Numbered from the stretch's first letter, positions 23,848-35,862 are shown. The stretch: DNA of 64,000 nt from Deltaproteobacteria bacterium (GCA_030694465.1 JAUXYJ010000103.1:219057-283056), one strand, 5' to 3'. Notes: generated from the sequence alone by a model not told the origin. Translations and numbers: made by a program.

Positions 23848-24759
23848 TCACGGATAATCGTGGGCAATACGCAGGGTCTCACTGCACGGTCGGCACATGG
23901 CCGATGGCGTCCCCGAGTTGCGCCGTGTGCGCCCCGCGACCGCTTTAAACACCTCGCCGCTCCGCGTCTCGTCGCAGGCCAGGCACGCGTTGATCTGCCC
24001 ATTGGCGAGGTTGTAAGGAGCCGCGAGCAGGCGAATGCAAATCTCGCCGCACACATCGCGCGTGTTCTCGGTATTGAAAGCCCACACTTGCGCGCACGGC
24101 AGCGTAAATCCCAGCGCGCGGAGGCAGGTCACCAGGCCCTCGTGCCCTCCCCCTCGCAACCCACAGGTGCGCACAGGCTCGGTCAAATCGGGGCGCTCCG
24201 CGTAGACCGCGAAATCTTCAAGCGACGAGCACACCCCGCACACGCCCCCGTGCGTGACGTGCGCTCCCGCTGCGAGCGCGAGCTCGGCGCTGGCAAAGTC
24301 TTGCAGCCGGTAGGTGTGCGCGGCGCGATCCACGACGACCACCGCACAGACCGCGCCGTCGGGCACGGTGCGCGCAGGAGAGAGATAGGGATTCACTGTG
24401 ATTTCGCTCACAGCATCGAGCAATCGATAGGCACGAAGGCTCGCCAATCGCGCGGCGTCAAACGTGGGCGCGGTCCACCGTGATGCGCCACAGCCGCACG
24501 CGGGCTGACAGCGCGCAGCAGACAGCCCCGTGCGCGCGTTGGGGACCCCAAAGAGGGCGTCGCAGGCGTCCACCGGAGGCTCAGCCTGATCCGCGCTCGC
24601 GTCGGCGGTGAGGGCGTCGTCAAGCGACATCCCGGCGTCCACAGCGTCGGCGGATCCCTCCGTGGACGCGTCGGTAGGCGCCACTGTCGGAGCTGGACAC
24701 CCAGACAAAACACAGACCAGCGCGCCTAAGAGGCCGGCGCTGAGGGCAGGATGGTTCAT
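23848..24759 (-). CDS. lipoprotein, hypothetical (Cys-rich)
   Basis: Start MNHPALSAGLLGALVCVLSGC gives a lipobox. 20+ Cys. The track ORF from 24936 is an N-terminal extension. Confidence 0.5.
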   Translation of the reverse strand: MNHPALSAGLLGALVCVLSGCPAPTVAPTDASTEGSADAVDAGMSLDDALTADASADQAEPPVDACDALFGVPNARTGLSAARCQPACGCGASRWTAPTFDAARLASLRAYRLLDAVSEITVNPYLSPARTVPDGAVCAVVVVDRAAHTYRLQDFASAELALAAGAHVTHGGVCGVCSSLEDFAVYAERPDLTEPVRTCGLRGGGHEGLVTCLRALGFTLPCAQVWAFNTENTRDVCGEICIRLLAAPYNLANGQINACLACDETRSGEVFKAVAGRTRRNSGTPSAMCRPCSETLRIAHDYP

Positions 24760-24829
24760 GACGATCCCGACTGTACACAATGAGCGGGCGAGCCCCTCGG
24801 GACAATCTGCGCGTGAGGACTTGACGACT

Positions 24830-24868
24830 TTGTGAACATTGTTCACATTGCGAACATGGTTCACAAAT
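24830..24868. promoter_or_regulatory. operator-like cluster of GTTCACA/TGTGAAC half-sites overlapping the TetR start
   Basis: TGTGAACATTGTTCACA is a perfect 17-bp palindrome, followed by GAACATGGTTCACA. It overlaps both candidate start codons of the TetR gene. Confidence 0.45.
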
Positions 24869-25569
24869 TCGAGGCCTACAGCCGTCGACGCGATGACAAG
24901 ACCGAGGCCATTCTTACGGCGGCGATGGCGTTGCATGCGCGTGATGGGCTCGAGGCGCTCACGCTGCAGCGCTTGGCCAAAGAGCTGGGCCTAGTGACCA
25001 CCGCGCTCTATCGCTATTTTGACTCAAAAGACGCCCTCTTGGCCGCGCTGCAACAGCGCGCGATCACGACGATTCACGCACAGTATCGGCAAGAGCTCTT
25101 GCGCTGGGAGGCGGCGTGCAAGCGCTTGTCCGACGACCGCAAGAGCCTGGCGATGATTGTAGCTTCGGCGAGGTTTTACACAGAGCTTCCGACCGAGATG
25201 CCCGAGACCTACCAGATGATGGCCATCTTGCTGAGCGACCCCAAGCCGCTCGTGCGTGACGATGACGCTGCGCAGTCCATCCCGTTGGTCGCTGCGTTGG
25301 TGAGCGAAGCGTCCGCGCTCTTTGATCTCGCAGAGAAGTCCAAGGCCATCACGAGCGGCGGGCTGCTGCGGCGCACCGTGCTCTTTTGGGCCTGTCTGCA
25401 GGGGATTATGCAGCTCTCTAAGCTCCGACGGCTCGTCCCGCAGGCCCCGACCATCCGCGCGCTCGCGGACGAAGCGTCGACCACGCTGCTGCGCGGAATG
25501 GGCGCGACCGAGGTAGACCTCCGGCGCGCGGTACGAACCGCAGATCGCATGCAAAAATCCAGCACTTAG
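24856..25569 (+). CDS. TetR/AcrR family transcriptional regulator
   Basis: N-terminal HTH (LTLQRLAKELGLVTTALYRYF) and C-terminal ligand domain. Start at 24856, or 24832 (both inside the palindromes). Confidence 0.75.
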   Translation: MVHKFEAYSRRRDDKTEAILTAAMALHARDGLEALTLQRLAKELGLVTTALYRYFDSKDALLAALQQRAITTIHAQYRQELLRWEAACKRLSDDRKSLAMIVASARFYTELPTEMPETYQMMAILLSDPKPLVRDDDAAQSIPLVAALVSEASALFDLAEKSKAITSGGLLRRTVLFWACLQGIMQLSKLRRLVPQAPTIRALADEASTTLLRGMGATEVDLRRAVRTADRMQKSST

Positions 25570-25617: not shown

Positions 25618-26271
25618 ATGTTCGCACCCCTGTCGTTTGCCGCTGGCGCGCTCACTTGGAGCGCGGCCGAGTACTGCATCCACCGCTTCGTAGGCCACGG
25701 CCCGAGACGCAAACGGCCTGCGAGTCTGCGGGCACAGTTGACGCTTGAGGGCTTGGCAGGCGCGTTTAACGAAGAGCACCTCGCGCACCACAGCGACCCG
25801 CAGTACTTTGCGCCCACGTCGCAGAAGCTCCTCGCGGCCACGGCGGCGATGACCGCCGCGACCCTGGTCGCCTCCGTGCTCTTGGGACCGCGGCGAGGGA
25901 TCGCGTATGGGCTGGGATTTGGGCTCGCGTATGGCGGCTACGAGGTGTTGCACCGGCGGATCCATACGCACGCGCCACGCAACGCCTACGGGCGCTGGAT
26001 GCGGCGGCACCATCTCTATCACCACCACAAGACCCCACGCGCCAACCACGGCGTCACGAGCCCTGTGTGGGACCGCTGGATCAAGACCGAAGAGCAGCTC
26101 GGAACCCAAGAGCCTCTGCGCATCCCGCGCAAGGTCGCCCCTCCCTGGATGCTCGACGCGCAGGGAGAAATCGCAGAGCAATTTGCGGCAGATTATGTGC
26201 TCGTAGGCAGCGCCGCGAAGAGCAAACCGGGCGCTGAGACGCCTGGCTCTGCCTCGCCTAACTCGCGCTAA
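25618..26271 (+). CDS. fatty acid hydroxylase superfamily (sterol desaturase-like) membrane enzyme
   Basis: His boxes HRFVGH, HLAHHSD, HRRIHTH, HHLYHHH in a ~215-aa protein. Directly downstream of the TetR gene. Confidence 0.6.
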   Translation: MFAPLSFAAGALTWSAAEYCIHRFVGHGPRRKRPASLRAQLTLEGLAGAFNEEHLAHHSDPQYFAPTSQKLLAATAAMTAATLVASVLLGPRRGIAYGLGFGLAYGGYEVLHRRIHTHAPRNAYGRWMRRHHLYHHHKTPRANHGVTSPVWDRWIKTEEQLGTQEPLRIPRKVAPPWMLDAQGEIAEQFAADYVLVGSAAKSKPGAETPGSASPNSR

Positions 26272-26494: not shown

Positions 26495-29488
26495 ATGAAA
26501 AAAACGCCAAGAATGCGCTCCCTTGTATTGCTGACGGTCGTCGCGGTGACCGCCGTTGGATGTCGTCGCTCACGCCAGACGGACGCGAACCAACGCGCGA
26601 CGGCCCAAGCCGATCGCAACACGTTGCTCGACCGCCAGGCGCAGCTCGCGCCCTCGGCGGTTGGGACCCAGCAGCGCTCGGAGGCCGACCACTACGAGGT
26701 GCCCGTTGTGCAGGGTGACCGGCTGGTGGTGACCGTCGAATCGACAGCGTTTGATCCCGTGCTTGAGGTCGTGCTCCCGGATGGATCGTCGCGCATCAAC
26801 GACGACTACCAGGGGAGCCGTCAGCGCTCACAGCTCACGCTCGCAGCGACCACCGCAGGGGCGCTCAAGGTCCGCGTGCGAGCCTATCGGGGCAACACCG
26901 GCGGCGCTTACCACGTGCGGGTCGCGCGCTCGACCGTCGCGGCCGTGGCCAACACCAACGCGCTCTCACCGCAGTATGCGCAGGCGCTCAACGCGAGCAA
27001 CGCAGTCAACGGGCTGGGCGCGCAGGGCGCTGCGTTTCTGGACTACCTGCAGCCCTCTGAGGCGACGACGCATCACCGTTTGCCCGCGGCATTCGCGGCT
27101 CAGACCGCGCTGACTTCGGGACGGGACGTCCGCGGGACTCTCGCCGAGGGCGACACGGTGTTGCCGAGCGGCGAGCTCGCGGACGCGTACACGTTTACGG
27201 GACAAGTCGGCGAGATGGTCGTCTTGGGCATGAACTCAACCGCGTTTGACTCGTACCTGATCGTTCAGACTCCGTCGGGGCGCGTGCTCGCCGACGACGA
27301 CTCGGGCGGAACGCTCAACTCCCAGCTCACCCTCGCCATCACCGAGCCCGGCGAATACCGCGTGATCGCAGCCAGCGCGCGGCCCGCCGTCAACGGCGCC
27401 TATGAGCTCAAGTTTCAACCGACCCGACGCACGATGAACCAAGAGTGGTACGGACAGCCAGGGCAGCCCGCACAGCCGGGTCAGCCGGGTCAGCCGGGTC
27501 AACCTGCACAGCCCGCGCCTCCGGTGGCAGCCACGGTGCAGCCAGGGACGCTCGCGACCGGCGATCAGACGCTGCGCACGGGTGAATTCGTGGACCGTTA
27601 TCAGTTCAACTGGCCCGTGGGCTCGACGGTGCGTGTGCGCCTAGAGAGCAGCGCGTTTGATCCGTACGTGATCGTGCGCGCTCCGTCGGGAGCCCAGCAA
27701 GACAACGACGACGCCTCGCCCTCGGACCGCAACTCGCAGCTTGACTACGTCGTGCGTGAAGCGGGCCAGCACACCGTGATGGTCACCAGCTATCGGCCCG
27801 GCGAGTCGGGTGCATACCAGCTCACCGTCGGCGGCGGCGCAGGGCAGCCCGGCGCGCTCCCGATCGCTCCGATGCCTTCGCAGCCCACGCAGCCCACGCA
27901 GCCTTCGCAGCCTTCGCAACAGCCCGGAGCGCTCGGCGCACAGACCGTCCAGGGAGTGCTCGCGCAGGGTGATGCGACGCGTCCATCGGGCGAATTTGCT
28001 GACAGTTTCCAGTACACGTTTCCTGCCGGTGCGGCCGTACGACTCGAAGCTACGAGCGAAGCGCTCGACACCTTCTTGATCGTGCGATCGCCCTCGGGAC
28101 AAGAGCAGCAGAACGACGACGGCATCCCCGGAACGACCAACTCTGCGCTGAGCTTTGTCACAAGCGAAGCGGGCGCATACACCGTCACCGTGAGCTCGTA
28201 TCGCGCTGGCGAAACAGGCGCGTACGCGCTCTCGGTGCAAGCCCCCGGGATCACAGGCGGCACGCAGCCCACCGCGCAGCCCAGCTTGCCCACCGCCATC
28301 CCAGTGCAACCCTCGCAACCCTCGCAACCCTCGCGGCCCGCAGGGCAACGCGAGATCCGCGGGACCCTCGCGCGGGGTGACACTACGCTGCAAACGGGCG
28401 AGTTTGTCGACACCCACGCGATGCAGTTTCGCCCCGGCGAGAGCGTACGTCTGCGCTTGGACAGCGCTGCGTTTGACACGTATCTCATCGTGCGAACACC
28501 CGGTGGACGTCAGCTCGACAACGACGATTTGGTCTCGGGCAATACGAACTCTGGCTTGGATATTCCGTCGGCAGAGGCTGGCAACTACCAGATCCGCGTG
28601 ACGAGCTATCGCCCCAACGAGACGGGCGAATATACGCTGCGGATTGACCACGGAGCCGCAGGCTCGCTCCCCGCGGACACCGCGCAGCCTTCGCAACCCG
28701 GACAACCCTCGCAGCCGTCTCAGCCCGGGCAGCCCTCCATCCCCAGCGTCGCCGGAGGAGCCCGTGTTTGGGGCGTATTTGCAGGGATTACGGACTATCC
28801 CGCAGGCGTCAACGACCTCCCCGAGTGCGCCAACGACGCGACCAAGCTCGTCGAGACACTGACCGAGCGTGGGTTGCTCACAGCCGAGCGTCGCGTGCTG
28901 CTCACCGACAGCCAAGCCACGGTCGAGAACGTGCGCCAAGCGATCCGACGCATCGGACCGCAGCTGGGTCCACAAGACGTCTTTGTCTTTTTCTACTCAG
29001 GTCATGGCGGTCGGACCAGCGGAGGATCACGCGACGCACGCGAGCTCGACGGCATGGACGAGTACCTCTATCTCTACGATGGTCGCTTGATGGACGACGA
29101 GATGGGGACGCTCTTTGACAGCGTCCGCGGGAGCACCAGCATTCTCGCGTTGGACTCTTGTTTTGCAGGCGGATTTGCCAAAGACGTGATCACGCGCCCC
29201 GGCCGTATCGGGCTGTTCTCGAGCGAAGAAGACGTCACCAGCTCGGTCGCACAACAGTTTCGCGCGGGTGGTTATCTCTCGCACTTCTTGCGCTTGGGCA
29301 TGGGCGGCGAGGCCGACCGTGATCCGCGAGACAACGCGCTCACCGTGGGCGAGCTCACGCACTATGTGTGGCGCCAGTTTGCGCAAAACGCGGCCAACGT
29401 GGACCAAGGCGAAGGCGCCTATCAGCACCTCGTCGTAGACCGCGGCGCGGTGCCCGTCGGCCAAGTGCTCTGGACCTACGGACGCTGA
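26495..29488 (+). CDS. lipoprotein with five PPC-like repeats and a C-terminal caspase-like (peptidase C14) domain
   Basis: Signal/lipobox MKKTPRMRSLVLLTVVAVTAVGC. Five ~80-aa repeats (D.Y.F....G..V...L.S.AFD.YL.V..P.G....DD.......S.L......G.Y.V.V.SYR....GAY.L.V) separated by QP(G/S)QP linkers. C-terminal FFYSGHGG (His) and LDSCFAGG (Cys) give a caspase-type dyad. Confidence 0.8.
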   Translation: MKKTPRMRSLVLLTVVAVTAVGCRRSRQTDANQRATAQADRNTLLDRQAQLAPSAVGTQQRSEADHYEVPVVQGDRLVVTVESTAFDPVLEVVLPDGSSRINDDYQGSRQRSQLTLAATTAGALKVRVRAYRGNTGGAYHVRVARSTVAAVANTNALSPQYAQALNASNAVNGLGAQGAAFLDYLQPSEATTHHRLPAAFAAQTALTSGRDVRGTLAEGDTVLPSGELADAYTFTGQVGEMVVLGMNSTAFDSYLIVQTPSGRVLADDDSGGTLNSQLTLAITEPGEYRVIAASARPAVNGAYELKFQPTRRTMNQEWYGQPGQPAQPGQPGQPGQPAQPAPPVAATVQPGTLATGDQTLRTGEFVDRYQFNWPVGSTVRVRLESSAFDPYVIVRAPSGAQQDNDDASPSDRNSQLDYVVREAGQHTVMVTSYRPGESGAYQLTVGGGAGQPGALPIAPMPSQPTQPTQPSQPSQQPGALGAQTVQGVLAQGDATRPSGEFADSFQYTFPAGAAVRLEATSEALDTFLIVRSPSGQEQQNDDGIPGTTNSALSFVTSEAGAYTVTVSSYRAGETGAYALSVQAPGITGGTQPTAQPSLPTAIPVQPSQPSQPSRPAGQREIRGTLARGDTTLQTGEFVDTHAMQFRPGESVRLRLDSAAFDTYLIVRTPGGRQLDNDDLVSGNTNSGLDIPSAEAGNYQIRVTSYRPNETGEYTLRIDHGAAGSLPADTAQPSQPGQPSQPSQPGQPSIPSVAGGARVWGVFAGITDYPAGVNDLPECANDATKLVETLTERGLLTAERRVLLTDSQATVENVRQAIRRIGPQLGPQDVFVFFYSGHGGRTSGGSRDARELDGMDEYLYLYDGRLMDDEMGTLFDSVRGSTSILALDSCFAGGFAKDVITRPGRIGLFSSEEDVTSSVAQQFRAGGYLSHFLRLGMGGEADRDPRDNALTVGELTHYVWRQFAQNAANVDQGEGAYQHLVVDRGAVPVGQVLWTYGR

Positions 29489-29586: not shown

Positions 29587-30489
29587 TCAGTGAGCCAAGC
29601 GATACGTCGCGAAGAGCCCTGTCACGAGCGTGACAAAGATCGTCAGGGCGACGAGAAATCCCGTGATCATCGCAGACGAATCCGACGTGAGCCCAAAGCG
29701 CTTGCGCATCCATGGGCGGACCATCGCCGTGATCGTCCCTGCAATGGCCAGCCCCACAAGCACACCCCAGAGCCCTGGCCTCACACAACGCAAGAGCGCG
29801 GGGCCGTCGAGATCCCCCTGACAACGCGAGCCCGACAAGACGCTAAAATACAGGCCAAGCCCCAGCATAATCACCAGCAAACTCGCCGCGAAGAGCCCCA
29901 TCATGGGCCCAAGCAGCGGGTGATTGCGGTGTTTGTCTCCGGTCGCGACGACCCGCGGAACCCCGCGCGCGAGCGCCGCCAATGCGCTCAGCACGGTGCG
30001 CCCCGGCGTGGGATCTGTCGGCGACGAGACAAACCTCGTGACGCTCACGGATAGCGAATAGTCAGGCCAAACGTCGATCTCGACGCGCGGGATGTCCATC
30101 GAGAGCAGCGCCAAGACGGCCGCGCGGACCTCGTCGTTGAGCACCTGCGCGAGGACCTCGTTGCGCGTCGGCGAGTCGATGTACACCGCAGCATCAAAGC
30201 GCTCATCGCCGGTCTGAAACTCAGTGTTTACGCCCGCGCGCTTTGCCTCGCGGTCTGCCGAACGCTCAACCGTTGCCAAGATATTCATGGGGCGGATCGC
30301 ACGGATTTCGGGCTGCGCGCGGTAGCCCTGCGCGCTCGCGCTTGACCTCGCCGCGCCGTCGTACGCGGTCGTGAGCGTGAGCTTAGGGTTGTCCTCGCCC
30401 TCGAAGCTCACGGCGATGTGCACGCCCTCCCAGACCAGCGCAAAGTCGTCGCCCTGCGCCCCTGCGAGCAGGCGAAGCTCGGCAATCAT
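29587..30489 (-). CDS. hypothetical membrane protein (soluble ~200-aa domain plus three C-terminal TM helices)
   Basis: ORF directly downstream of the giant surface-protein gene on the same strand. Start at MIAELRLLAG, or 30570. Confidence 0.5.
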   Translation of the reverse strand: MIAELRLLAGAQGDDFALVWEGVHIAVSFEGEDNPKLTLTTAYDGAARSSASAQGYRAQPEIRAIRPMNILATVERSADREAKRAGVNTEFQTGDERFDAAVYIDSPTRNEVLAQVLNDEVRAAVLALLSMDIPRVEIDVWPDYSLSVSVTRFVSSPTDPTPGRTVLSALAALARGVPRVVATGDKHRNHPLLGPMMGLFAASLLVIMLGLGLYFSVLSGSRCQGDLDGPALLRCVRPGLWGVLVGLAIAGTITAMVRPWMRKRFGLTSDSSAMITGFLVALTIFVTLVTGLFATYRLAH

Positions 30490-30615
30490 CGCGTTCTTGG
30501 GGTCGTCGTTCACAAAGCAGATCTTAGTCCTGACCCAGGACACGAGAAATCGATCCAGGCCAGTGATCACTCACCGCCGACCGATGCCCCGCTCACGAGT
30601 GCCCCCGCTTCGTGA

Positions 30616-33600
30616 CTACGCGCTGCGGCGCGCTTGTGCGCGGCGGCGCTGTCGCACGACCACCAAGGCGAGCGCACTCAGAGCGAGCCCCGTCTTGGAT
30701 GCGGGCGAGCCCTGCGCAGGTGCGCTGCCAACCACGCGACACGCGCACGCGCCGTCGCCGCTCAGGACACCGTTGAAGCCGCCTGCATCCGGACGAACCG
30801 CGCCGTCCATCGCGACTGCGCCGTCCATCGCGACTGCGCCATCGTTGATCGCTGCGTCGCCGAGGGCTGCGTCCATGACGCCACCATCGACACCGCCACG
30901 CGGTACGCAGCGCTGCGCCATGACGTCGCACTGGTGCGTCGGTGCGCAGTCAGAGTCCATCGTGCAGCCGCACATGCCCGCTGCGCCTGCCATCGGGCCA
31001 ACACAGGCGGTGCCTGCCATGTCCGAGCGGCATCCGTTGGCGTTGCCGCCTGGGCCGACGGTGCAGACCACGCAGGTCATCGCAGAACACACCGGCAAAT
31101 TTGCAGGGCACTCTGGATCGGTCGTGCAGCCCATGCGCGGTGCGCAGCGGCCGACAGCGATGTCGCACACGGGCGTCGCGCCCATGCACTGCGTGCTGTT
31201 GACGGCAGAGCACTGGCCACACGCGCCGGTTGGCTGACACGCGGGGTTTGCGCCGCCGCACTCGGTGTCCATCGCGCAGCCGCGACACACGCCCGCTGCG
31301 ATGTCGCAGACCGGAGCGCTCCCGCCGCAGTCTGCGTTGCTCATGCAACCCGAGCGGATGCTGAACGTGCTCATGGTGCTCGCCATGTTGCCCGCAGCGT
31401 CGCGCGAGGTCGCGGTGACGGTGTGCATTCCGTCCATGAGAATCCCCACGGTTGGTGCGCTCCAGCGTCCCATGGCGTCTGCCATCACGACGATGGGAGC
31501 GCCGCCGTCCACGATCACAGTGACCACAGCGTTTGGCTCGGTGGTGCCTGTGATCGTGGGGGTGCGATCGTTGATGGTGGATGCGTTCGCGGGGCTGACG
31601 ATCACGATGGCTGGGACCGTCGCGTCGATCACAAACGTGGTCGTCGCGCGTCCGGTCATCCCACCAGACATCACCGTGGCGACCACGGTGGTGCTCCCCT
31701 CGGGGAGGGGCATGGTAGGTGTCAGGGTCCAGATGCCCATCGCGTTGGCGGTCACGGTGACCGGAGCGCCACCGTTGATCGACACTTGGACCATCGCGCC
31801 TGGATCCGCTGTGCCCGTGATCACAGGCATGCGGTTCGAGGTGGTCGAGCCGTTGGGGGGCGTGGTGATCACGACGTTGAGCGAGCTCGTGTCGATCGTG
31901 AAGGTGCTCATGGTGCTCGCCGTGTTGCCGGCTGCGTCACGTGCAGTCGCCATCACAAGGTGCATCCCGTTGGCGAGCGCTGCGGGTGGAGTGACCGACC
32001 ACAGACCGAGGGCGTCCGCGGTGGTCATCAGCACGGTGCCGCCGTCGAGGGTCACAGTGACCTGCGCGCCGGGCTCGGTGGTGCCCGTGATGTTCGGTCG
32101 AACGTCACGGATGGTGCTTCCGTCCACGGGGGTGTTGATCACGATCGCCGGAGCGCGCGTGTCCACCGTGAAGCTCGTCGAGGACATGGCCGTTCCGCCC
32201 ATGGGGTTGGTCGTGGTGGCGACCACAACGTGAGGTCCATCCACCAGCGGAATCGCTGGTGTCAGGGTCCAGTTGCCCATCGCGTCCGCGGTCACAGTGA
32301 CAGGGACGCCACCGTCCACGATCACGACGACCATCGCGCCTGGGTCTGCACGACCCGAGATCACCGGGCGCGGGTTCGACGTCACGCTCGCGTTAGGCGG
32401 CGTGGTGATCGTCAGCGTGGGCGCAGTGACGCTCACGGTGAAGGTCGACATCGCGTTGGCGGTGTTGCCCGCTGCGTCCGTCGCAGTTGCTGCGACCGTG
32501 TGCGGGCCGTCCATCAACGCGACGAGCGTCGGGATGGACCAGTTGCCCATCGCGTCGGCCATCGTGACCACGGGCGCGGCGCCATCCACCACAACGCTCA
32601 CACTCGCGTTGGGCTCAGTGCGTCCCGAAATCGTCGGCATGCGGTCCGAAGTTGTGGCTCCGTTTGCAGGCGAAACGATCGTGATCGCGGGCGCGACCGT
32701 GTCCACGGTGAAGGTCGTGGTTGCGGTCGACACATTGCCCGCAGCGTCCACCGTCCGGGCGCTCGCCGTGTGAGGCCCTTCGCTCAGCGGCGCAGCGGGT
32801 GTCAGGGTCCAGTTGCCCATCGCGTCCGCAGTCACGTTGACCTGAGCGCCACCATCGAGGCTCACGCTCACGGTCGCGCCAGGGTTAGCGCGGCCAGTGA
32901 CGGGCGGGCGGTTGTTGCGCGTCGAGCTGCCGTTCGGGGGCGTGACGATCGTGAGCAGCGGCGCTGCCGTGTTGATCGTAAAGCGCGTGGTCGCGCTCGC
33001 GCTGTTGCCCGCTGCATCCGTTGCAGTTGCAGTTGCGCTGTGGCTACCGTTCATCAACGGCGCCGCGGGTGTGACGGTCCAGTTGCCCAACGCGTCCGCG
33101 GTGGTCATGAGCGCGGGTCCACCATCGATCGAGACCGTGATGATCGCGCCGGGCTCGCTGCGTCCAACGATCGGCGGCTGGTTCATCGCGACCGTGCTGC
33201 CATTGGCAGGGCTCGTGATGACAATCACCGGCGCAGTCGCGTCCACGATAAACGTGGTCGTCGCGCTCACCGAGTTGCCCGCGCTGTCGGTCACGCGAGC
33301 AAGCACGCTGTGCATTCCGTCAGTCAAATTACTGACTGGAATGAGGGTCCAGTTGCCCATCGCGTCTGCCGTCACGGTGACCGCGGGGGCTCCGTCAATC
33401 GACACTTGGACCATCGCGCTGGGGGTCGTGCGTCCCGTGATCGGCACGCGGCGGTTGTTCGTCGTGCTGCCATCAGCAGGCGTCACAATCGTGATCGTCG
33501 GCAGGGTCGCGTTGACGGTAAACGTCGTGCTCGCCATCGCCGTGTTGCCCATCGCGTCACGCGCGGTCGCGATCGCGGTGTGCATGCCGTTCATCAGGGC

Positions 33601-35862
33601 CATCGGTGGGGTCACCGACCAGTTGCCCATCGCGTCGGCAGTGGTCATCACGCTGGCGCCGCCATCGATGCTCACGGTCACCGTCGCGCCTGGCGCGGTG
33701 GTCCCCGTAATCGCAGGGCGGTTGCTGGTCGTTGTTGAGCCGTTCGCCGGCGCGGTGATCGCGAGGTTAAGACTGCGGATGGTCACCGGAGCGCCACCCA
33801 CAATGGTGGTCTCAGTGAGATTGGTACCGTCGTTGTAGGTCACGACGATGTCGCTGTCGTAGTCCGGTGGCGACTGCGGGATCGCGCTGCCCGCACGGGC
33901 GTTGAAGCGAATGGTAGCTCGTGCGCCAGCGGCAAGCGTTGATGCACCAAAAGGCCAGCTCAATTGCTGACGGTTCTCTGTGGTGTACGGCACCAACGTC
34001 GGAGGTGCCGCGGCGGTCGGAGCCGCTGCGGGCCCGCCGGTCACCATGCTGCTGCCGACGACAAAGTCAAAGCGCGAGTTAATTCCCATGCCGTTGTTGG
34101 TCGCCAACAGCGCATGGACGTTGATCGCGGTCGCAGGGCGTGTGCCGCTATTGATGATGGTCAGCGTGTACTGTGTGGTCCCCGCAACTGGAATGGTCGC
34201 AGGATTTGCAGTGAGATTGAGCAAGAGGTTTGCTTGGTCACCCACAGTGACCACCGACGTTGACTGCGCCGTGGGGTTGAGCCCCGTCGCCGCGAGGCGC
34301 GATGTGCTGATCAGCACGTCGCCATTTCCGCCGGCAATTCGCACGTCATACTCGACAACGCCGCCCTCACCCGTCGCGAGCGAGGCCACCGTGCGAAAGG
34401 TCATGGTCGCCCCGCTGCCTGGGCACGCAGGTGTGCTGGGCAAGAGCGCAGGGCCGCTCACAACCACTGCGTTTGAGACAGGGCATCCGCCGGCCAAACG
34501 CGGGGGCAACACCACCGAGATGATCGTGTTCGGCAGCGGGATCCCCCCCATGTTCTGGTAGGTGATGCGGTAGCGCAGGAGCGCGCCAGCAGGGACCAAC
34601 GAGCCCGTTGCGGGCACGCCGTTGACCGAGACCAAGGTGTGCGCCAAGAGCACGCGCGAGTTGGTCGCAGCCACGCTGGGCACGTGATAGCGCCACGAGT
34701 TGTCTTGACCGCGCTCGCCCGCCGCAGTAGCCGAATCGCCACCAAAGACCTCTGAGTTCACGATGTATCCGCTCGCCGGTGGGGCAGCCGTCACCCGCAC
34801 CGTGAGGCGCACATAGCGGAGCGTGCCGACCACCAAGCGACCCACAGCCCAACGCACTGCGTTGGTCCCCGCAGGGAGCGGGGCTGCTGCCGAGACCGCG
34901 CGGCCCAGCGTGGTGTAGTTGCCATCAACAAAGGTACCGCTGCTGCCATCTGCATTGATCGCAGGGGTGCCCGCGGCGCTACCGATGCGCGAGCCCTGCG
35001 CAGCGATGCGCTGCCACGGACCTACGTTGCCGGTGTTGTCCAGGGGGCTCGCCGAGTCAGGACCTGCGACGGCCGAGCCCGACATAAAGGGAGCCGCACC
35101 ACGACCATCACCGATCGCGAGCGCGACAGACTTGGGGTTGGCGAGCGCTGCCGCTGCTGCTGCGGTCGATCCAAACGCGTTGGTCTGGTCGGCGTCCCAC
35201 AGGTTGTGCGTGGTCGCACGCGCCTGACCAATAATGGGATTGAGCTGTCCAGCGCCTGTGGGGTTGATGTTGTATCCGTTGGTCCCCTGGCGAGCGATCC
35301 CGTCGGTGTCATTGAGCACAACCAGCGCCGTGCGCGCATTCGTCGAGAAGAAGATCCCGGTGTCTGCGTAGATCTGCGCCATACGAGCCGTGCAGTTCGC
35401 CGGTGTCTTCATCGCCGCGGTGCAGCGCGCGGCGTAGGTCGCGTTGGTGGTGACAAATCCCGTGTAGCCACCTTGGCCACGGTTGCCCCAGCCGTCGGAC
35501 ATGGGCCCCGGAAGCTGCGGTGTGGTAATCACAAAACCGCCAGCGCCGTCGGGCGCTACGTAGTCCGCGCCGATGACCTGCAGCCCTGCCGGGATATAGC
35601 CCGTCACGTACCCACCAGCACCGACGGTGGCGCCGTTGGCCACCGGAGTAAACTCGATGATGTAGCTCAGCGTGTCGCCGAGGCGGATGCCCGGCATCGC
35701 CGACATCCCGCGCGAGGCCAAGAGTGACGCGGTCGCTGGGTCAAAATAAATGGACGTATTGACTTGTCCTACGGAGTGTGCTTCGGCCGTTCGATAGACG
35801 ACCAGCAGGGAGAGTATGAGCGTCCAAAACGCGACGGCATATCTACGAAAACGTTGTTCCAT
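30616..35862 (-). CDS. giant (1748 aa) cell-surface protein: N-terminal beta-rich domain, 9 tandem Ig-like repeats, Cys-rich module, MYXO-CTERM-like sorting tail
   Basis: Signal MEQRFRRYAVAFWTLILSLLVVYRTAEA. Nine ~89-aa units (P.NGST....RP.ITG.TEPGA.V.V..DGG......ADAMGNW...P...L..G.H...ATA.DAAGN.....T.FT.D). Then ~25 Cys. The tail is GACACRVVGSAPAQGSPASKTGLALSALALVVVRQRRRAQARRSA, i.e. Cys, Gly/Ser, a TM helix and an Arg cluster. Confidence 0.8.
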   Translation of the reverse strand: MEQRFRRYAVAFWTLILSLLVVYRTAEAHSVGQVNTSIYFDPATASLLASRGMSAMPGIRLGDTLSYIIEFTPVANGATVGAGGYVTGYIPAGLQVIGADYVAPDGAGGFVITTPQLPGPMSDGWGNRGQGGYTGFVTTNATYAARCTAAMKTPANCTARMAQIYADTGIFFSTNARTALVVLNDTDGIARQGTNGYNINPTGAGQLNPIIGQARATTHNLWDADQTNAFGSTAAAAAALANPKSVALAIGDGRGAAPFMSGSAVAGPDSASPLDNTGNVGPWQRIAAQGSRIGSAAGTPAINADGSSGTFVDGNYTTLGRAVSAAAPLPAGTNAVRWAVGRLVVGTLRYVRLTVRVTAAPPASGYIVNSEVFGGDSATAAGERGQDNSWRYHVPSVAATNSRVLLAHTLVSVNGVPATGSLVPAGALLRYRITYQNMGGIPLPNTIISVVLPPRLAGGCPVSNAVVVSGPALLPSTPACPGSGATMTFRTVASLATGEGGVVEYDVRIAGGNGDVLISTSRLAATGLNPTAQSTSVVTVGDQANLLLNLTANPATIPVAGTTQYTLTIINSGTRPATAINVHALLATNNGMGINSRFDFVVGSSMVTGGPAAAPTAAAPPTLVPYTTENRQQLSWPFGASTLAAGARATIRFNARAGSAIPQSPPDYDSDIVVTYNDGTNLTETTIVGGAPVTIRSLNLAITAPANGSTTTSNRPAITGTTAPGATVTVSIDGGASVMTTADAMGNWSVTPPMALMNGMHTAIATARDAMGNTAMASTTFTVNATLPTITIVTPADGSTTNNRRVPITGRTTPSAMVQVSIDGAPAVTVTADAMGNWTLIPVSNLTDGMHSVLARVTDSAGNSVSATTTFIVDATAPVIVITSPANGSTVAMNQPPIVGRSEPGAIITVSIDGGPALMTTADALGNWTVTPAAPLMNGSHSATATATDAAGNSASATTRFTINTAAPLLTIVTPPNGSSTRNNRPPVTGRANPGATVSVSLDGGAQVNVTADAMGNWTLTPAAPLSEGPHTASARTVDAAGNVSTATTTFTVDTVAPAITIVSPANGATTSDRMPTISGRTEPNASVSVVVDGAAPVVTMADAMGNWSIPTLVALMDGPHTVAATATDAAGNTANAMSTFTVSVTAPTLTITTPPNASVTSNPRPVISGRADPGAMVVVIVDGGVPVTVTADAMGNWTLTPAIPLVDGPHVVVATTTNPMGGTAMSSTSFTVDTRAPAIVINTPVDGSTIRDVRPNITGTTEPGAQVTVTLDGGTVLMTTADALGLWSVTPPAALANGMHLVMATARDAAGNTASTMSTFTIDTSSLNVVITTPPNGSTTSNRMPVITGTADPGAMVQVSINGGAPVTVTANAMGIWTLTPTMPLPEGSTTVVATVMSGGMTGRATTTFVIDATVPAIVIVSPANASTINDRTPTITGTTEPNAVVTVIVDGGAPIVVMADAMGRWSAPTVGILMDGMHTVTATSRDAAGNMASTMSTFSIRSGCMSNADCGGSAPVCDIAAGVCRGCAMDTECGGANPACQPTGACGQCSAVNSTQCMGATPVCDIAVGRCAPRMGCTTDPECPANLPVCSAMTCVVCTVGPGGNANGCRSDMAGTACVGPMAGAAGMCGCTMDSDCAPTHQCDVMAQRCVPRGGVDGGVMDAALGDAAINDGAVAMDGAVAMDGAVRPDAGGFNGVLSGDGACACRVVGSAPAQGSPASKTGLALSALALVVVRQRRRAQARRSA
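31348..33750. repeat. array of ~267-bp tandem coding repeats (9 Ig-like units of the giant gene)
   Basis: Protein-level periodicity of 89 aa. It also creates a 1034-aa stop-free antisense frame. Boundaries are approximate. Confidence 0.7.

What the first reader, a model, noticed from the sequence alone, without database searches (positions are those of the whole stretch)
26495..29488. Lipoprotein combining five PPC-type repeats with a caspase (C14) catalytic domain
Five PPC-like beta-sandwich repeats, each preceded by a (Q/P/S/G) low-complexity linker, precede a domain with the canonical caspase His (FFYSGHGG) and Cys (LDSCFAGG) dyad, all on a lipobox signal. PPC domains normally sit at the C-terminus of secreted peptidases and are removed. 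Here they are N-terminal and multiplied, so the protein looks like an envelope-tethered protease carrying a multivalent binding or presentation stalk. I do not recall this architecture as characterised.
Basis: partly seen in the sequence, partly recalled or inferred. Interest (0 to 1): 0.7.

Follow-up and report, generated by a model that had tools for sequence, protein, structure and literature searches.

The report
Exported metacaspase-like protease on PPC stalk
This gene encodes a probably lipid-anchored, exported cysteine protease of the metacaspase type, carried behind five PPC beta-sandwich modules; the reading is correct, but it is the standard design of a large, already annotated and experimentally unstudied bacterial family, not a one-off.

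Summary
ORF 26495-29488 (+) encodes 997 aa: a signal peptide with lipobox (Cys23), five PPC-type repeats, and a C-terminal Peptidase_C14 domain with His837 and Cys889. Pfam, AlphaFold2 models (pLDDT 91 and 96) and fold searches confirm both folds. The catalytic domain is closest to metacaspases and Geobacter GSU0716. It keeps the acidic S1 pocket (Cys778, Asp781, Ser835, Asp887) and the metacaspase Ca2+-site aspartates, so Arg/Lys specificity and Ca2+ dependence are the likely properties (inferred). The protein is not unique. It is NCBI MDP3279083.1, "caspase family protein". Its catalytic subfamily has 256 representative clusters at E<=1e-30 and at least 534 loci in species-representative genomes, mostly Polyangiales/Sandaracinaceae, also Caulobacterales and Sumerlaeota. 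Nearly all have a signal peptide, 1-10 N-terminal PPC repeats and a C-terminal C14 domain. Repeats are position-specific orthologues. Genomic context is not conserved, and there are no defence or cell-death partner genes. New here: a conserved L-x-R-x-H-H-x-L-P motif in the spacer before repeat 2 (91/119 relatives). Best reading: an exported, anchored Arg/Lys endopeptidase whose PPC array binds or spaces substrates. No paper describing this architecture was found. Verdict: new variant of a known kind, moderate interest.

The parts
26495..26563 (+). Signal peptide with lipobox (residues 1-23, MKKTPRMRSLVLLTVVAVTAVGC). Cys23 is the predicted lipidation site.
   Evidence: Sequence. A lipobox-type Cys after the hydrophobic core occurs in 82/120 close relatives and 38/145 distant representatives; most of the rest have a signal-peptide-like hydrophobic N-terminus.
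26564..26623 (+). Polar tether (residues 24-43, RRSRQTDANQRATAQADRNT); +2/+3 residues are Arg-Arg.
   Evidence: Sequence. CRR[ST]R is conserved in the closest clade.
26624..26932 (+). PPC repeat 1 (residues 44-146), the 'type 1' repeat that is always first in the array.
   Evidence: Family repeat-HMM envelope 45-146. Pfam PPC 22.5 bits, E=2e-4. Position-specific orthology.
26933..27121 (+). Spacer of 63 aa (residues 147-209) that is not Q/P-rich.
   Evidence: No Pfam match (protein 6).
27059..27088 (+). Conserved short motif EATTHHRLPA (residues 189-198; His193-His194; family consensus L-[AS]-R-x-H-H-[QR]-[LF]-P). Arg195 is the only basic residue in the spacer.
   Evidence: Present in 91/119 relatives, always in the spacer before the type-2 repeat, although spacer length ranges from 12 to about 170 aa. 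His frequency in the family is 1.6%.
27122..27424 (+). PPC repeat 2 (residues 210-310), 'type 2'.
   Evidence: Repeat-HMM envelope. Pfam PPC 18.3 bits, E=4e-3. 42% identical to repeat 3.
27425..27532 (+). Linker 2 (residues 311-346) with (GQP/AQP)n low complexity at 320-343; Arg311-Arg312 lie at its start.
27533..27838 (+). PPC repeat 3 (residues 347-448).
   Evidence: Pfam PPC 29.3 bits, above GA 25.9. AF2 pLDDT 95.7, eight beta-strands. Foldseek matches: Tk-SP C-domain, ColG CBD (TM 0.73, rmsd 2.3 A) and B. anthracis collagenase PPC 5sv5.
27839..27940 (+). Linker 3 (residues 449-482), P/Q/S/T-rich, with no Arg or Lys.
27941..28246 (+). PPC repeat 4 (residues 483-584).
   Evidence: Pfam PPC 28.5 bits. 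Repeat HMM.
28247..28348 (+). Linker 4 (residues 585-618), P/Q/S/T-rich; its single Arg614 is followed by Pro.
28349..28654 (+). PPC repeat 5 (residues 619-720), 'type 5', always next to the catalytic domain.
   Evidence: Pfam PPC 27.2 bits. Position-specific orthology.
28655..28762 (+). Linker 5 (residues 721-756), (QPS/QPG)n, with no Arg or Lys.
28763..29485 (+). Metacaspase-like Peptidase_C14 domain (residues 757-997). Catalytic His837 (nt 29003-29005) and Cys889 (nt 29159-29161). S1-pocket positions Cys778, Asp781, Ser835, Asp887. Ca2+-site positions Asp855, Asp867, Asp868 (and Asp897). Conserved FSSEED at 908-913.
   Evidence: Pfam 50.4 bits vs GA 21.4. AF2 pLDDT 91.2, pTM 0.90. Foldseek top hits are metacaspases and GSU0716, E down to 6e-13, TM 0.6-0.66. 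Sequence alignments. Invariance. Residue mapping via PMC4357240 and PMC9622860.
29486..29488 (+). Stop codon.

Best explanation
The gene encodes an exported, probably lipid-anchored endopeptidase of the metacaspase branch of family C14.

Shown: a Sec/lipoprotein-type signal with Cys23; five PPC beta-sandwich modules of ordered, position-specific types joined by Pro/Gln/Ala/Thr-rich linkers; and a complete caspase-hemoglobinase domain at the C-terminal end. That domain has an invariant His837-Cys889 dyad, an acidic S1 pocket (Asp781, Asp887, with Cys778 and Ser835) and the metacaspase Ca2+-site aspartates.

Inferred: after export and lipidation the protein stays tethered to a membrane by Cys23, with the protease about 730 residues away on a segmented stalk. 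The enzyme cleaves after Arg/Lys and needs Ca2+. It would then be inactive at cytoplasmic Ca2+ levels and become active outside the cytoplasm. The PPC modules act as protein- or polymer-binding modules and as a spacer. This would raise affinity for large or insoluble substrates, as retained PPC/CBD modules do in secreted metallo- and serine proteases. The most likely role is extracytoplasmic protein degradation or processing (nutrient scavenging, prey or matrix proteins) by a stand-alone gene, not intracellular cell death or defence signalling. The conserved R-x-H-H-x-L-P motif between repeats 1 and 2 is a candidate processing or regulatory site. Cleavage there would detach the rest of the protein from its anchor.
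For: Domain calls: Pfam PPC x5 and Peptidase_C14.

Catalytic fold: AF2 pLDDT 91.2. Foldseek best hits are C. glabrata, yeast, Arabidopsis and T. brucei metacaspases and GSU0716, followed by MALT1. phmmer and profile hits to the same structures have His and Cys in register.

Catalytic competence: His837, Cys889, Asp781, Ser835, Asp887, Asp852, Glu856 and Asp867 are invariant in 76 relatives. Asp855, Asp868 and Cys778 are conserved in about 88-93% of them.

Residue mapping: these positions correspond to the TbMCA2 S1 pocket (Cys92, Asp95, Ser156, Asp211) and Ca2+ site (Asp173, Asp189, Asp190, Asp220). The mapping uses the explicit 7qp0 alignment together with PMC4357240 and PMC9622860. All characterised non-caspase C14 members prefer basic P1 residues (PMC5756287).

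Repeat fold: AF2 pLDDT 95.7. Best matches are the Tk-SP C-domain, ColG collagen-binding domain and B. anthracis collagenase PPC. PPC domains retained in mature E495 bind proteins and raise catalytic efficiency on protein substrates (PMC3327674).

Export: lipobox or signal-peptide-like N-termini occur in most relatives. The mature protein has only two Cys, both in the active site.

Selection on the layout: SP-(PPC)n-C14 holds in 134/145 distant representatives and in all complete genome loci examined. Repeats are position-specific orthologues.

Stand-alone gene: the neighbours differ in every locus examined, and none is a gasdermin, NTPase or other partner. PADLOC gives only a partial generic caspase match.
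Against: There is no experimental evidence for activity, specificity, Ca2+ dependence, lipidation or localisation of any family member.

The lipobox has Ala at -3, which is atypical compared with the E. coli consensus. The +2/+3 Arg-Arg gives no reliable sorting prediction, so a periplasmic location is as possible as surface exposure.

The region after the catalytic Cys aligns with the metacaspase p10 region only at fold level. The sequence-profile alignments stop about 12 residues after Cys889. The fourth Ca2+ ligand (Asp897) is one residue out of register.

The ligand of the PPC modules is unknown. The AF2 models give no information on inter-domain contacts, because only isolated domains were modelled.

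In the query itself the Arg at -2 of the HH motif is Thr.
Confidence: 0.55

Rival explanations
1. Zymogen model. The PPC array and linkers form a large N-terminal pro-region (folding aid, inhibitor or secretion carrier) that is removed by autoprocessing. The working enzyme is then a free catalytic domain of about 27 kDa, as with the C-terminal PPC domains that many secreted proteases lose on maturation.
For: PPC is defined as a 'pre-peptidase' domain that is often cleaved off. E495 loses one or both PPC domains. Metacaspases and gingipains are self-inhibited by N-terminal regions and mature by autocleavage (PMC4357240; PMC9622860). Basic residues sit at some domain borders (Arg311-Arg312, Arg195 in the HH motif, Arg757).
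Against: Repeat number varies from 1 to 10, while the first, second and last repeat types are conserved by position over long evolutionary distances. That is more constraint than a disposable pro-piece needs. Linkers 3 and 5 contain no Arg or Lys, and family linkers are depleted in Arg (3.5% vs 6.5%) with no Lys. Linker 5, next to the catalytic domain, therefore offers no site for an Arg/Lys-specific self-cleavage. In E495 the form that keeps one PPC domain is a stable mature enzyme with better activity on proteins.
Confidence: 0.2
2. Periplasmic processing-protease model. The lipoprotein faces the periplasm, on the inner membrane or the inner leaflet of the outer membrane, and cleaves a small set of envelope proteins. 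The PPC modules act as specific protein-protein recognition domains, not as general substrate binders.
For: Most Gram-negative lipoproteins face the periplasm (established knowledge). Position-specific conservation of repeat types and the conserved HH motif fit specific partners. Genomes carry two or more paralogues, as expected for enzymes with different specific targets.
Against: No conserved neighbouring gene points to a partner or substrate. An extended stalk of five modules with four long Pro-rich linkers looks long for the periplasm (my estimate, not computed). Relatives outside Myxococcota have ordinary signal peptides without an anchor, which fits soluble secreted enzymes.
Confidence: 0.17
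3. Intracellular cell-death or anti-phage effector, like the cytoplasmic bacterial caspase-like proteases that act with sensor NTPases, gasdermins or CRISPR-associated modules.
For: The Peptidase_C14 domain gives weak matches to NCBIfam 'caspase, EACC1-associated type' (49.5 bits) and to a PADLOC 'caspase' model (52.9 bits, only profile positions 4-84 of 453).
Against: The NCBIfam score is far below the cut-off of 140, and the PADLOC match covers only the generic N-terminal part of the fold. A signal peptide or lipobox is conserved across the family. No sensor, gasdermin or other partner domain is present in the protein or next to it, and the context varies.
Confidence: 0.03
4. Non-catalytic adhesin or pseudo-enzyme. 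The caspase-like domain serves only as a binding module for basic peptides at the end of an adhesive stalk.
For: Pseudo-orthocaspases with an intact acidic pocket but no dyad exist in bacteria (PMC6426788). The protein sits near a Ca2+-stabilised repeat adhesin gene.
Against: His837 and Cys889 are invariant in 76/76 aligned relatives, and the glycine-rich motifs around them are also kept. Known pseudo-variants replace these residues with Tyr/Ser.
Confidence: 0.05

Closest known systems
Type I metacaspases (family C14B: T. brucei MCA2, S. cerevisiae Yca1, C. glabrata MCA-I)
   Same: Caspase-hemoglobinase fold (best Foldseek hits, TM 0.6-0.66). YSGHG and DxCxxG motifs are in register. The S1-pocket residues and Ca2+-site aspartates are conserved.
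   Different: They are eukaryotic and cytosolic, with a Pro/Gln-rich or zinc-finger N-terminal prodomain and a longer p20-p10 connection. Here the protein is exported and carries five PPC modules upstream. There is no 70-residue inhibitory N-terminal segment, and the connection after the catalytic Cys is short. Identity is only 14-26%.
GSU0716 of Geobacter sulfurreducens (PDB 3BIJ), a structural-genomics bacterial metacaspase-like protein
   Same: Best sequence match among solved structures (E=4e-13 with the single sequence, 3.6e-22 with the profile). It shares the motif SYSGHGG...DG.DE...DGEL.DDEL...DSC.SG.
   Different: It is a single-domain protein of 285 residues without PPC repeats, and its function is unknown. 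The PDB title calls it 'uncharacterized protein'.
Orthocaspases (prokaryotic C14 proteins such as Microcystis MaOC1)
   Same: Prokaryotic, with a His-Cys dyad and an acidic pocket. Arg/Lys specificity has been shown for MaOC1 (PMC5756287).
   Different: Orthocaspases are described as p20-only, with accessory domains 'commonly located C-terminal'. Here the accessory domains are N-terminal, the fold continues through a p10-equivalent region, and the protein is exported.
Gingipains RgpA/Kgp of Porphyromonas gingivalis (family C25, clan CD)
   Same: This is an analogy in how it may work: a clan CD, Arg- or Lys-specific cysteine protease outside the cytoplasm, retained at the cell envelope and combined with several beta-sandwich adhesin or binding modules (specificity and clan from PMC4357240; the adhesin-domain architecture is from my own knowledge).
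   Different: Gingipains belong to a different family (there is no Peptidase_C25 match at E<=1). Their adhesin domains are C-terminal and of another fold, they are secreted by the type IX system, and they are anchored through a modified LPS rather than an N-terminal lipid.
Secreted proteases with PPC / collagen-binding domains (thermolysin-like E495, Clostridium ColG/ColH, Grimontia collagenase, Tk-SP, KP-43)
   Same: Same accessory fold. Retained PPC/CBD domains bind protein substrates and raise activity on macromolecules (PMC6168687, title and abstract listed).
   Different: In those enzymes the domain is C-terminal, present in one to three copies, and attached to metallo- or serine proteases. 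Here it is N-terminal, present in five copies of distinct conserved types, and attached to a cysteine protease.

Membership tests
Peptidase family C14 (Pfam PF00656, caspase domain) | Profile match above the curated threshold | tested here: met
   46.9 bits for the whole protein and 50.4 bits for the isolated domain, against a gathering score of 21.4.
Peptidase family C14 (Pfam PF00656, caspase domain) | Caspase-hemoglobinase fold | tested here: met
   AF2 pLDDT 91.2, pTM 0.90. 193 PDB matches at E<=1e-3. The 50 listed are metacaspases, GSU0716 and MALT1.
Peptidase family C14 (Pfam PF00656, caspase domain) | Catalytic His and Cys at the ends of the conserved strands, aligned with known enzymes | tested here: met
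   His837 and Cys889 align with the catalytic residues of GSU0716, Yca1, CgMCA-I and AtMC4. They are invariant in 76/76 relatives.
Peptidase family C14 (Pfam PF00656, caspase domain) | Peptidase activity | not testable with these tools
   Requires enzyme assays.
Metacaspases (C14B) | Acidic S1 pocket (TbMCA2 Cys92, Asp95, Ser156, Asp211) giving Arg/Lys specificity | tested here: met
   Cys778 (68/76), Asp781, Ser835 and Asp887 (each 76/76) occupy these positions. Specificity itself is inferred.
Metacaspases (C14B) | Ca2+ site of four aspartates (TbMCA2 Asp173/189/190/220) | tested here: inconclusive
   Asp855, Asp867 and Asp868 align explicitly through CgMCA-I Asp198/214/215. Asp897 is one residue out of register with Asp220/Asp245 and lies beyond the aligned stretch. 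Ca2+ binding was not tested.
Metacaspases (C14B) | p10 region homologous to metacaspase p10 (with the 280-loop) | tested here: inconclusive
   Foldseek alignments span the whole 253-residue model against mature metacaspase chains (257-265 columns). Sequence and profile alignments end about 12 residues after Cys889.
Metacaspases (C14B), type I | N-terminal Pro-rich or zinc-finger prodomain | tested here: not met
   The N-terminal region is a signal peptide plus five PPC repeats. I therefore call the protein metacaspase-like, not a type I metacaspase.
Orthocaspases | Prokaryotic p20-only C14 protein, with accessory domains usually C-terminal | tested here: not met
   Accessory domains are N-terminal, and the fold continues about 100 residues past the catalytic Cys.
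PPC domain (Pfam PF04151) | Profile match above threshold | tested here: met
   83.9 bits for the whole protein against a gathering score of 25.9, in 5 stretches. Repeats 3-5 pass singly; repeats 1-2 do not (22.5 and 18.3 bits).
PPC domain (Pfam PF04151) | PPC / collagen-binding-domain beta-sandwich fold | tested here: met
   AF2 pLDDT 95.7. Matches: ColG CBD 1nqj TM 0.73, rmsd 2.3 A; 5sv5 'pre-peptidase C-terminal domain' TM 0.73; Tk-SP C-domain E=7e-5.
PPC domain (Pfam PF04151) | Position C-terminal to a secreted peptidase domain | tested here: not met
   All five copies are N-terminal to the peptidase domain.
NCBIfam NF047832, caspase, EACC1-associated type (conflict systems) | Score above the curated cut-off | tested here: not met
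   49.5 bits against a cut-off of 140. No EACC1 or NTPase partner is present in the neighbourhood.
Known anti-phage defence systems (PADLOC) | Full-length match to a defence-system protein, plus partner genes | tested here: not met
   Only profile positions 4-84 of 453 of a 'caspase' model match. The neighbours have no hits.
Bacterial lipoproteins | Signal peptide ending in a lipobox with an invariant Cys | tested here: met
   The pattern {n-region K2 K3 R6 R8}-{SLVLLTVVAVTAV}-G-C23 matches a PROSITE-like lipobox expression. A Cys is conserved at this place in 82/120 close relatives. Lipidation itself is not testable here.
Gingipains (C25) | Sequence membership in Peptidase_C25 | tested here: not met
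   No such Pfam match at E<=1. The resemblance is functional only.

The most novel reading that the evidence does not exclude
The family could be an externally acting 'caspase' weapon or release switch. The enzyme would be held inactive on the producer's envelope by its ordered PPC array. The conserved L-x-R-x-H-H-x-L-P element between repeats 1 and 2 would serve as an autocleavage or pseudosubstrate site. Its cleavage, on Ca2+ or substrate contact, would release a soluble four-PPC protease that binds and degrades prey or sibling cell-surface proteins. That would link caspase-type proteolysis to predation or developmental lysis from outside the cell in Polyangia.
Probability: 0.12. Interest if true: 0.7.

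Novelty: new variant of a known kind. Interest (0 to 1): 0.42.

Why it matters
Bacterial caspase homologues are mostly discussed as intracellular enzymes of cell death, defence or regulation. Very few have been studied biochemically, and the 2017 review consulted here names only one characterised orthocaspase.

This family shows a large, coherent branch that is built for export. It has at least 534 loci in species-representative genomes and 256 representative clusters at 50% identity. It keeps the full metacaspase catalytic and Ca2+ machinery, and it carries an ordered array of binding-type modules on the unusual N-terminal side.

If the prediction holds, these would be abundant extracellular Arg/Lys-specific cysteine proteases of soil and sediment Myxococcota and of some Alphaproteobacteria. 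That is relevant to predation, protein turnover and vesicle cargo. They would also offer a simple bacterial system for studying Ca2+ activation of metacaspases.

The gene itself is an ordinary member of that family, so its value is as an entry point and not as a singular oddity.

Tried and rejected
1. Conserved gene neighbourhood. Four homologous loci (Sandaracinus amylolyticus, a 9-Mb Polyangiales genome, a close metagenomic relative and a distant one with an ordinary signal peptide) and the window share no neighbour. A PpiC-type rotamase appears near two of them but not in the window. The operon idea was dropped.

2. Defence or cell-death system. The PADLOC and NCBIfam EACC1-caspase matches are partial or far below cut-off. 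Rejected.

3. First attempt at a repeat alignment with full-length relatives (A2). It put the query's own repeats in different columns and was not used. It was replaced by an alignment of 63 excised repeats (A3).

4. Single-repeat sequence search of the PDB. It gave only chance-level filamin matches (E 0.02-0.8). The fold search was needed to identify the fold.

5. Weak Pfam matches to GBD_IRG7_N, Filamin and Y_Y_Y are all below their thresholds and overlap the PPC repeats. I treat them as generic beta-sandwich similarity. The NCBIfam FDP_fam match (31.5 vs cut-off 29, residues 515-582) lies on repeat 4 and was not pursued.

6. Promoter and terminator scan. It found no sigma-70-like promoter, and terminator-like hairpins were at chance level. 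Uninformative in this high-GC genome.

7. Long ORFs on the opposite strand inside the gene (for example 27641..28975, 444 aa) have no support and are treated as high-GC shadow ORFs.

8. Literature searches for PPC combined with metacaspase, orthocaspase or Peptidase_C14 found no description of the architecture.

9. McLuskey et al. 2012 could not be fetched. Its residue lists were taken from two open reviews or papers instead. One paper prints Ser159 where the review prints Ser156; Ser156, at His-2, fits the motif.

Full report

Yes. The ORF list shows a 997-codon frame at exactly 26495..29488 on the + strand. It has an ATG start, and a GAAAGG sequence lies 8 nt upstream. Codon-position GC is 0.69/0.52/0.77, typical of a coding frame in this 62-69% GC window. 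The long frames on the opposite strand are shadow ORFs of a high-GC gene.

Pfam finds PPC (PF04151, E=1.4e-23, five stretches) and Peptidase_C14 (PF00656, E=3.6e-12, residues 763-896). Scanned one by one, repeats 3, 4 and 5 pass the PPC gathering score. Repeats 1 and 2 are below it (22.5 and 18.3 bits) but are 36-42% identical to repeat 3 in a repeat-level alignment.

The N-terminus is MKKTPRMRSLVLLTVVAVTAVGC: a basic n-region, a hydrophobic core, then Gly-Cys23. This fits a lipoprotein signal.

One detail needs correcting. Q/P/S/G-rich linkers precede repeats 3-5 and the catalytic domain only. Repeat 1 follows a short polar tether, and repeat 2 follows a 63-residue spacer of different composition.

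**2. The catalytic domain**

*Sequence matches to solved structures.* A phmmer search with residues 755-997 finds Geobacter GSU0716 (3BIJ, E=4e-13), then Arabidopsis MC4/MC9, yeast and Candida glabrata metacaspase-1, and T. brucei MCA2. YSGHGG and DSCxxG are in register. A family profile raises these to E=1e-22 to 1e-14.

*Fold.* An AlphaFold2 model of residues 745-997, built on 76 relatives, is confident (pLDDT 91.2, pTM 0.90). Its best Foldseek matches in the PDB are the same metacaspases and GSU0716 (E down to 6e-13, TM 0.6-0.66 over about 260 columns). MALT1 paracaspase follows.

*Conservation.* In the 76-sequence alignment His837, Cys889, Asp781, Ser835, Asp887, Asp852, Glu856, Asp867 and the block F-S-S-E-E-D (908-913) are invariant or nearly so.

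*Residue mapping.* The clan CD review lists the TbMCA2 S1-pocket residues as Cys92, Asp95, Ser156 and Asp211, and the allosteric Ca2+ site as Asp173, Asp189, Asp190 and Asp220 (PMC4357240). The C. glabrata paper gives the equivalents Asp198, Asp214, Asp215 and Asp245 (PMC9622860). Using the explicit alignment to that protein:
- The S1-pocket positions in the query are Cys778, Asp781, Ser835 and Asp887.
- Three of the four Ca2+ ligands are Asp855, Asp867 and Asp868.
- Asp897 is one residue out of register for the fourth ligand and lies outside the aligned stretch.

All characterised non-caspase C14 enzymes cleave after Arg/Lys because of this acidic pocket (PMC5756287). I therefore infer an Arg/Lys-specific, probably Ca2+-dependent endopeptidase. 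This is an inference from conserved residues, not a measurement.

*Classification limits.* The part after the catalytic Cys matches the metacaspase p10 region at fold level only, because the sequence alignments stop about 12 residues after Cys889. The protein lacks the Pro-rich or zinc-finger prodomain of type I metacaspases. It also does not fit the description of orthocaspases as p20-only with C-terminal accessory domains. 'Metacaspase-like C14 domain' is the accurate label.

**3. The repeats**

An alignment of 63 excised repeats from the family gives this consensus:

G-x-L-x-x-G-D-x-x-L-x-x-G-E-F-x-D-x-Y ... S-x-x-F-D-T-Y-L ... P-x-G ... N-D-D ... G-x-Y ... T-S-Y-R-x-G-E-T-G-x-Y-x-L

The acidic and Asn positions are nearly invariant. 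The AlphaFold2 model of repeat 3 is an eight-stranded beta-sandwich (pLDDT 95.7). Its best PDB matches are:
- the C-terminal beta-jelly-roll domain of the Thermococcus subtilisin Tk-SP;
- the C-domains of KP-43 and SubHal;
- the collagen-binding domain of ColG (TM 0.73, rmsd 2.3 A);
- the 'pre-peptidase C-terminal domain' of Bacillus anthracis collagenase (TM 0.73).

So the repeats are PPC/CBD-type modules, and the second refutation test is also passed.

The repeats are not interchangeable copies. When each repeat of 119 relatives is matched back to the five query repeats, type 1 is first, type 2 is second (or third), type 5 is last, and types 3/4 fill the middle in varying number. The array is therefore old and ordered, and copy-number change happens in the middle.

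The linkers between repeats are Pro/Ala/Gly/Thr-rich across the family. They contain no Lys and about half the family-average Arg content. In the query, linkers 3 and 5 have no basic residue at all.

**4. An unreported feature**

The spacer before the type-2 repeat carries a short motif with consensus L-[AS]-R-x-H-H-[QR]-[LF]-P. In the query it reads EATTHHRLPA, residues 189-198.

It is present in 91 of 119 relatives, always at this place. The spacer length varies from 12 to about 170 residues, and His makes up only 1.6% of these proteins. It is missing from N-terminally truncated fragments, from one six-repeat subclade, and from the distant relatives with ordinary signal peptides.

In the query, Arg195 inside the motif is the only basic residue of the spacer. 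A conserved Arg-containing linear motif in an otherwise variable spacer of a probable Arg-specific protease is a natural candidate for an autoprocessing or pseudosubstrate site. His-His could equally bind a metal.

**5. How common is it, and where?**

The exact protein is in NCBI as MDP3279083.1, 'caspase family protein [Deltaproteobacteria bacterium]', from a 313-kb MAG contig.

- *Word-indexed search.* It returned 251 relatives at E<=1e-5, limited by the candidate cap. All 120 listed carry PF04151 plus PF00656, and they have 2-10 repeats, most often 5 or 4.
- *Exhaustive search with the catalytic domain alone.* It finds 256 representative clusters (50% identity) at E<=1e-30. Of 145 new representatives, 134 have 1-9 PPC-type repeats upstream, and the C14 domain is almost always at the very C-terminus.
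- *Species-representative genomes.* The scan found at least 534 loci. Most are Polyangiales/Sandaracinaceae MAGs, plus Sandaracinus amylolyticus. Sumerlaeota, Bradymonadia, Caulobacterales and a cultured Brevundimonas are also present, often with two or more paralogues per genome.
- *N-termini.* They are lipobox-type in 82/120 close relatives. In distant ones they are mostly ordinary signal-peptide-like (85/145), with lipoboxes in 38/145.

The design signal peptide-(PPC)n-C14 is thus the norm of a large family.

**6. Context**

Upstream on the same strand are a TetR regulator and a fatty-acid hydroxylase-family protein, separated from the gene by 223 nt. Downstream, on the opposite strand, are a 327-aa membrane-like ORF without family matches and a 1748-aa Ca2+-stabilised Ig-like repeat adhesin.

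The neighbours in S. amylolyticus, in a 9-Mb Polyangiales genome, in a 66%-identical relative and in a distant relative are all different. There is no gasdermin, NTPase sensor or other partner. PADLOC gives only a partial generic caspase match, and the NCBIfam EACC1-associated caspase model scores 49.5 against a cut-off of 140. The gene works alone.

**7. Most likely mechanism**

*Shown:* the export signal with Cys23, the ordered PPC array with flexible linkers, and a complete, conserved metacaspase-type active site at the far end.

*Inferred:*
- Lipid anchoring of the mature protein.
- Arg/Lys specificity and Ca2+ dependence. Ca2+ dependence would keep the enzyme quiet before export.
- PPC modules that bind protein or polymer substrates and hold the enzyme away from the membrane. 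This is by analogy with the retained PPC domain of protease E495, which binds proteins and raises efficiency on protein substrates (PMC3327674), and with collagenase CBDs (PMC6168687, from the title and abstract listed).

The mature protein has only two cysteines, both in the active site, so no structural disulfides are possible.

I put about 0.55 on this reading as a whole. The identity of the parts is near certain. The role of the PPC array and the exact compartment are not.

*Rivals:*
- A zymogen whose PPC region is cut off (0.2). Arguing against it are the position-specific conservation and the absence of basic residues in the linker next to the catalytic domain.
- A periplasm-facing specific processing protease (0.17).
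- A pseudo-enzyme adhesin (0.05). The invariant dyad argues against it.
- A cytoplasmic death or defence effector (0.03). The export signals and the lack of partners argue against it.

**8. Comparison with what is known, and novelty**

The nearest relatives by sequence and fold are type I metacaspases and GSU0716. The nearest functional analogy is the gingipains: clan CD, Arg/Lys-specific, cell-envelope-associated and fused to several adhesin modules. They belong to another family and have the opposite domain order.

The 2012 survey of prokaryotic caspase homologues noted 46 sequences with an N-terminal helix that may be a signal peptide and 30 'extracellular' ones, but it does not mention PPC (PMC3501461). 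The later surveys and full-text searches also gave nothing on this architecture.

I rate it a new variant of a known kind. Both domains and the enzyme class are known, and the protein is already annotated by domain. What has not been described is the exported, N-terminally PPC-arrayed branch, with its ordered repeats and HH motif.

Interest is moderate (0.42). It is a good entry point to extracellular bacterial metacaspase biology, but it is neither a unique gene nor a surprise in kind.

Noticed in passing
window 27059-27088 (residues 189-198): A conserved short linear motif, L-[AS]-R-x-H-H-[QR]-[LF]-P, lies in the otherwise variable spacer before PPC repeat 2. It is present in 91/119 relatives and absent from the non-myxobacterial branch. 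Its function is unknown; candidates are an autoprocessing, pseudosubstrate or metal site.
   Followed up: partly
window 30616-35862 (-): A 1748-aa protein with nine Ca2+-stabilised Ig-like repeats (NCBIfam Ca_tandemer 312 bits; Pfam Big_13 x9, Big_6). It also has a Cys-rich C-terminal region ending in a hydrophobic stretch and an Arg-rich tail (...GACACRVVG...LALSALALVVVRQRRRAQARRSA). From memory this resembles a MYXO-CTERM-type sorting signal; no model for it was among the matches.
   Followed up: partly
window 24832-25569 (+) and 25618-26271 (+): A TetR-family regulator is followed by a fatty-acid hydroxylase-family membrane protein, directly upstream of the protease gene on the same strand (223-nt gap). 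This pairing is not seen next to the homologues examined elsewhere.
   Followed up: partly
window 23848-24936 (-) and 29587-30570 (-): Two ORFs (362 aa and 327 aa) have no Pfam, NCBIfam or PADLOC match. The first is Cys-rich, and its hydrophobic N-terminal stretch ends in LSGC, a possible lipoprotein signal. The second has several hydrophobic segments near its C-terminus.
   Followed up: partly
L001 11686-12498 and L002 9018-9392: A PpiC-type rotamase gene lies near the homologue in two Polyangiales genomes. In L002 it overlaps the 3' end of the protease gene. No such gene is next to the window's copy or in loci L003-L005, so this may be coincidence.
   Followed up: no
genome loci L015/L061, L041/L052, L030/L054, L028/L059: Several genomes carry two or more paralogues of the PPC-C14 protein with different repeat numbers (2 to 6), which suggests functional diversification within one organism.
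   Followed up: no
P0078 (1408 aa) and P0119 (985 aa): Two relatives have precomputed hits to PF01067 (both) and PF09250 (P0078 only) in addition to PPC and C14, and P0078 has ten PPC-type repeats. These are rarer, extended versions of the architecture. The extra domains were not examined.
   Followed up: no
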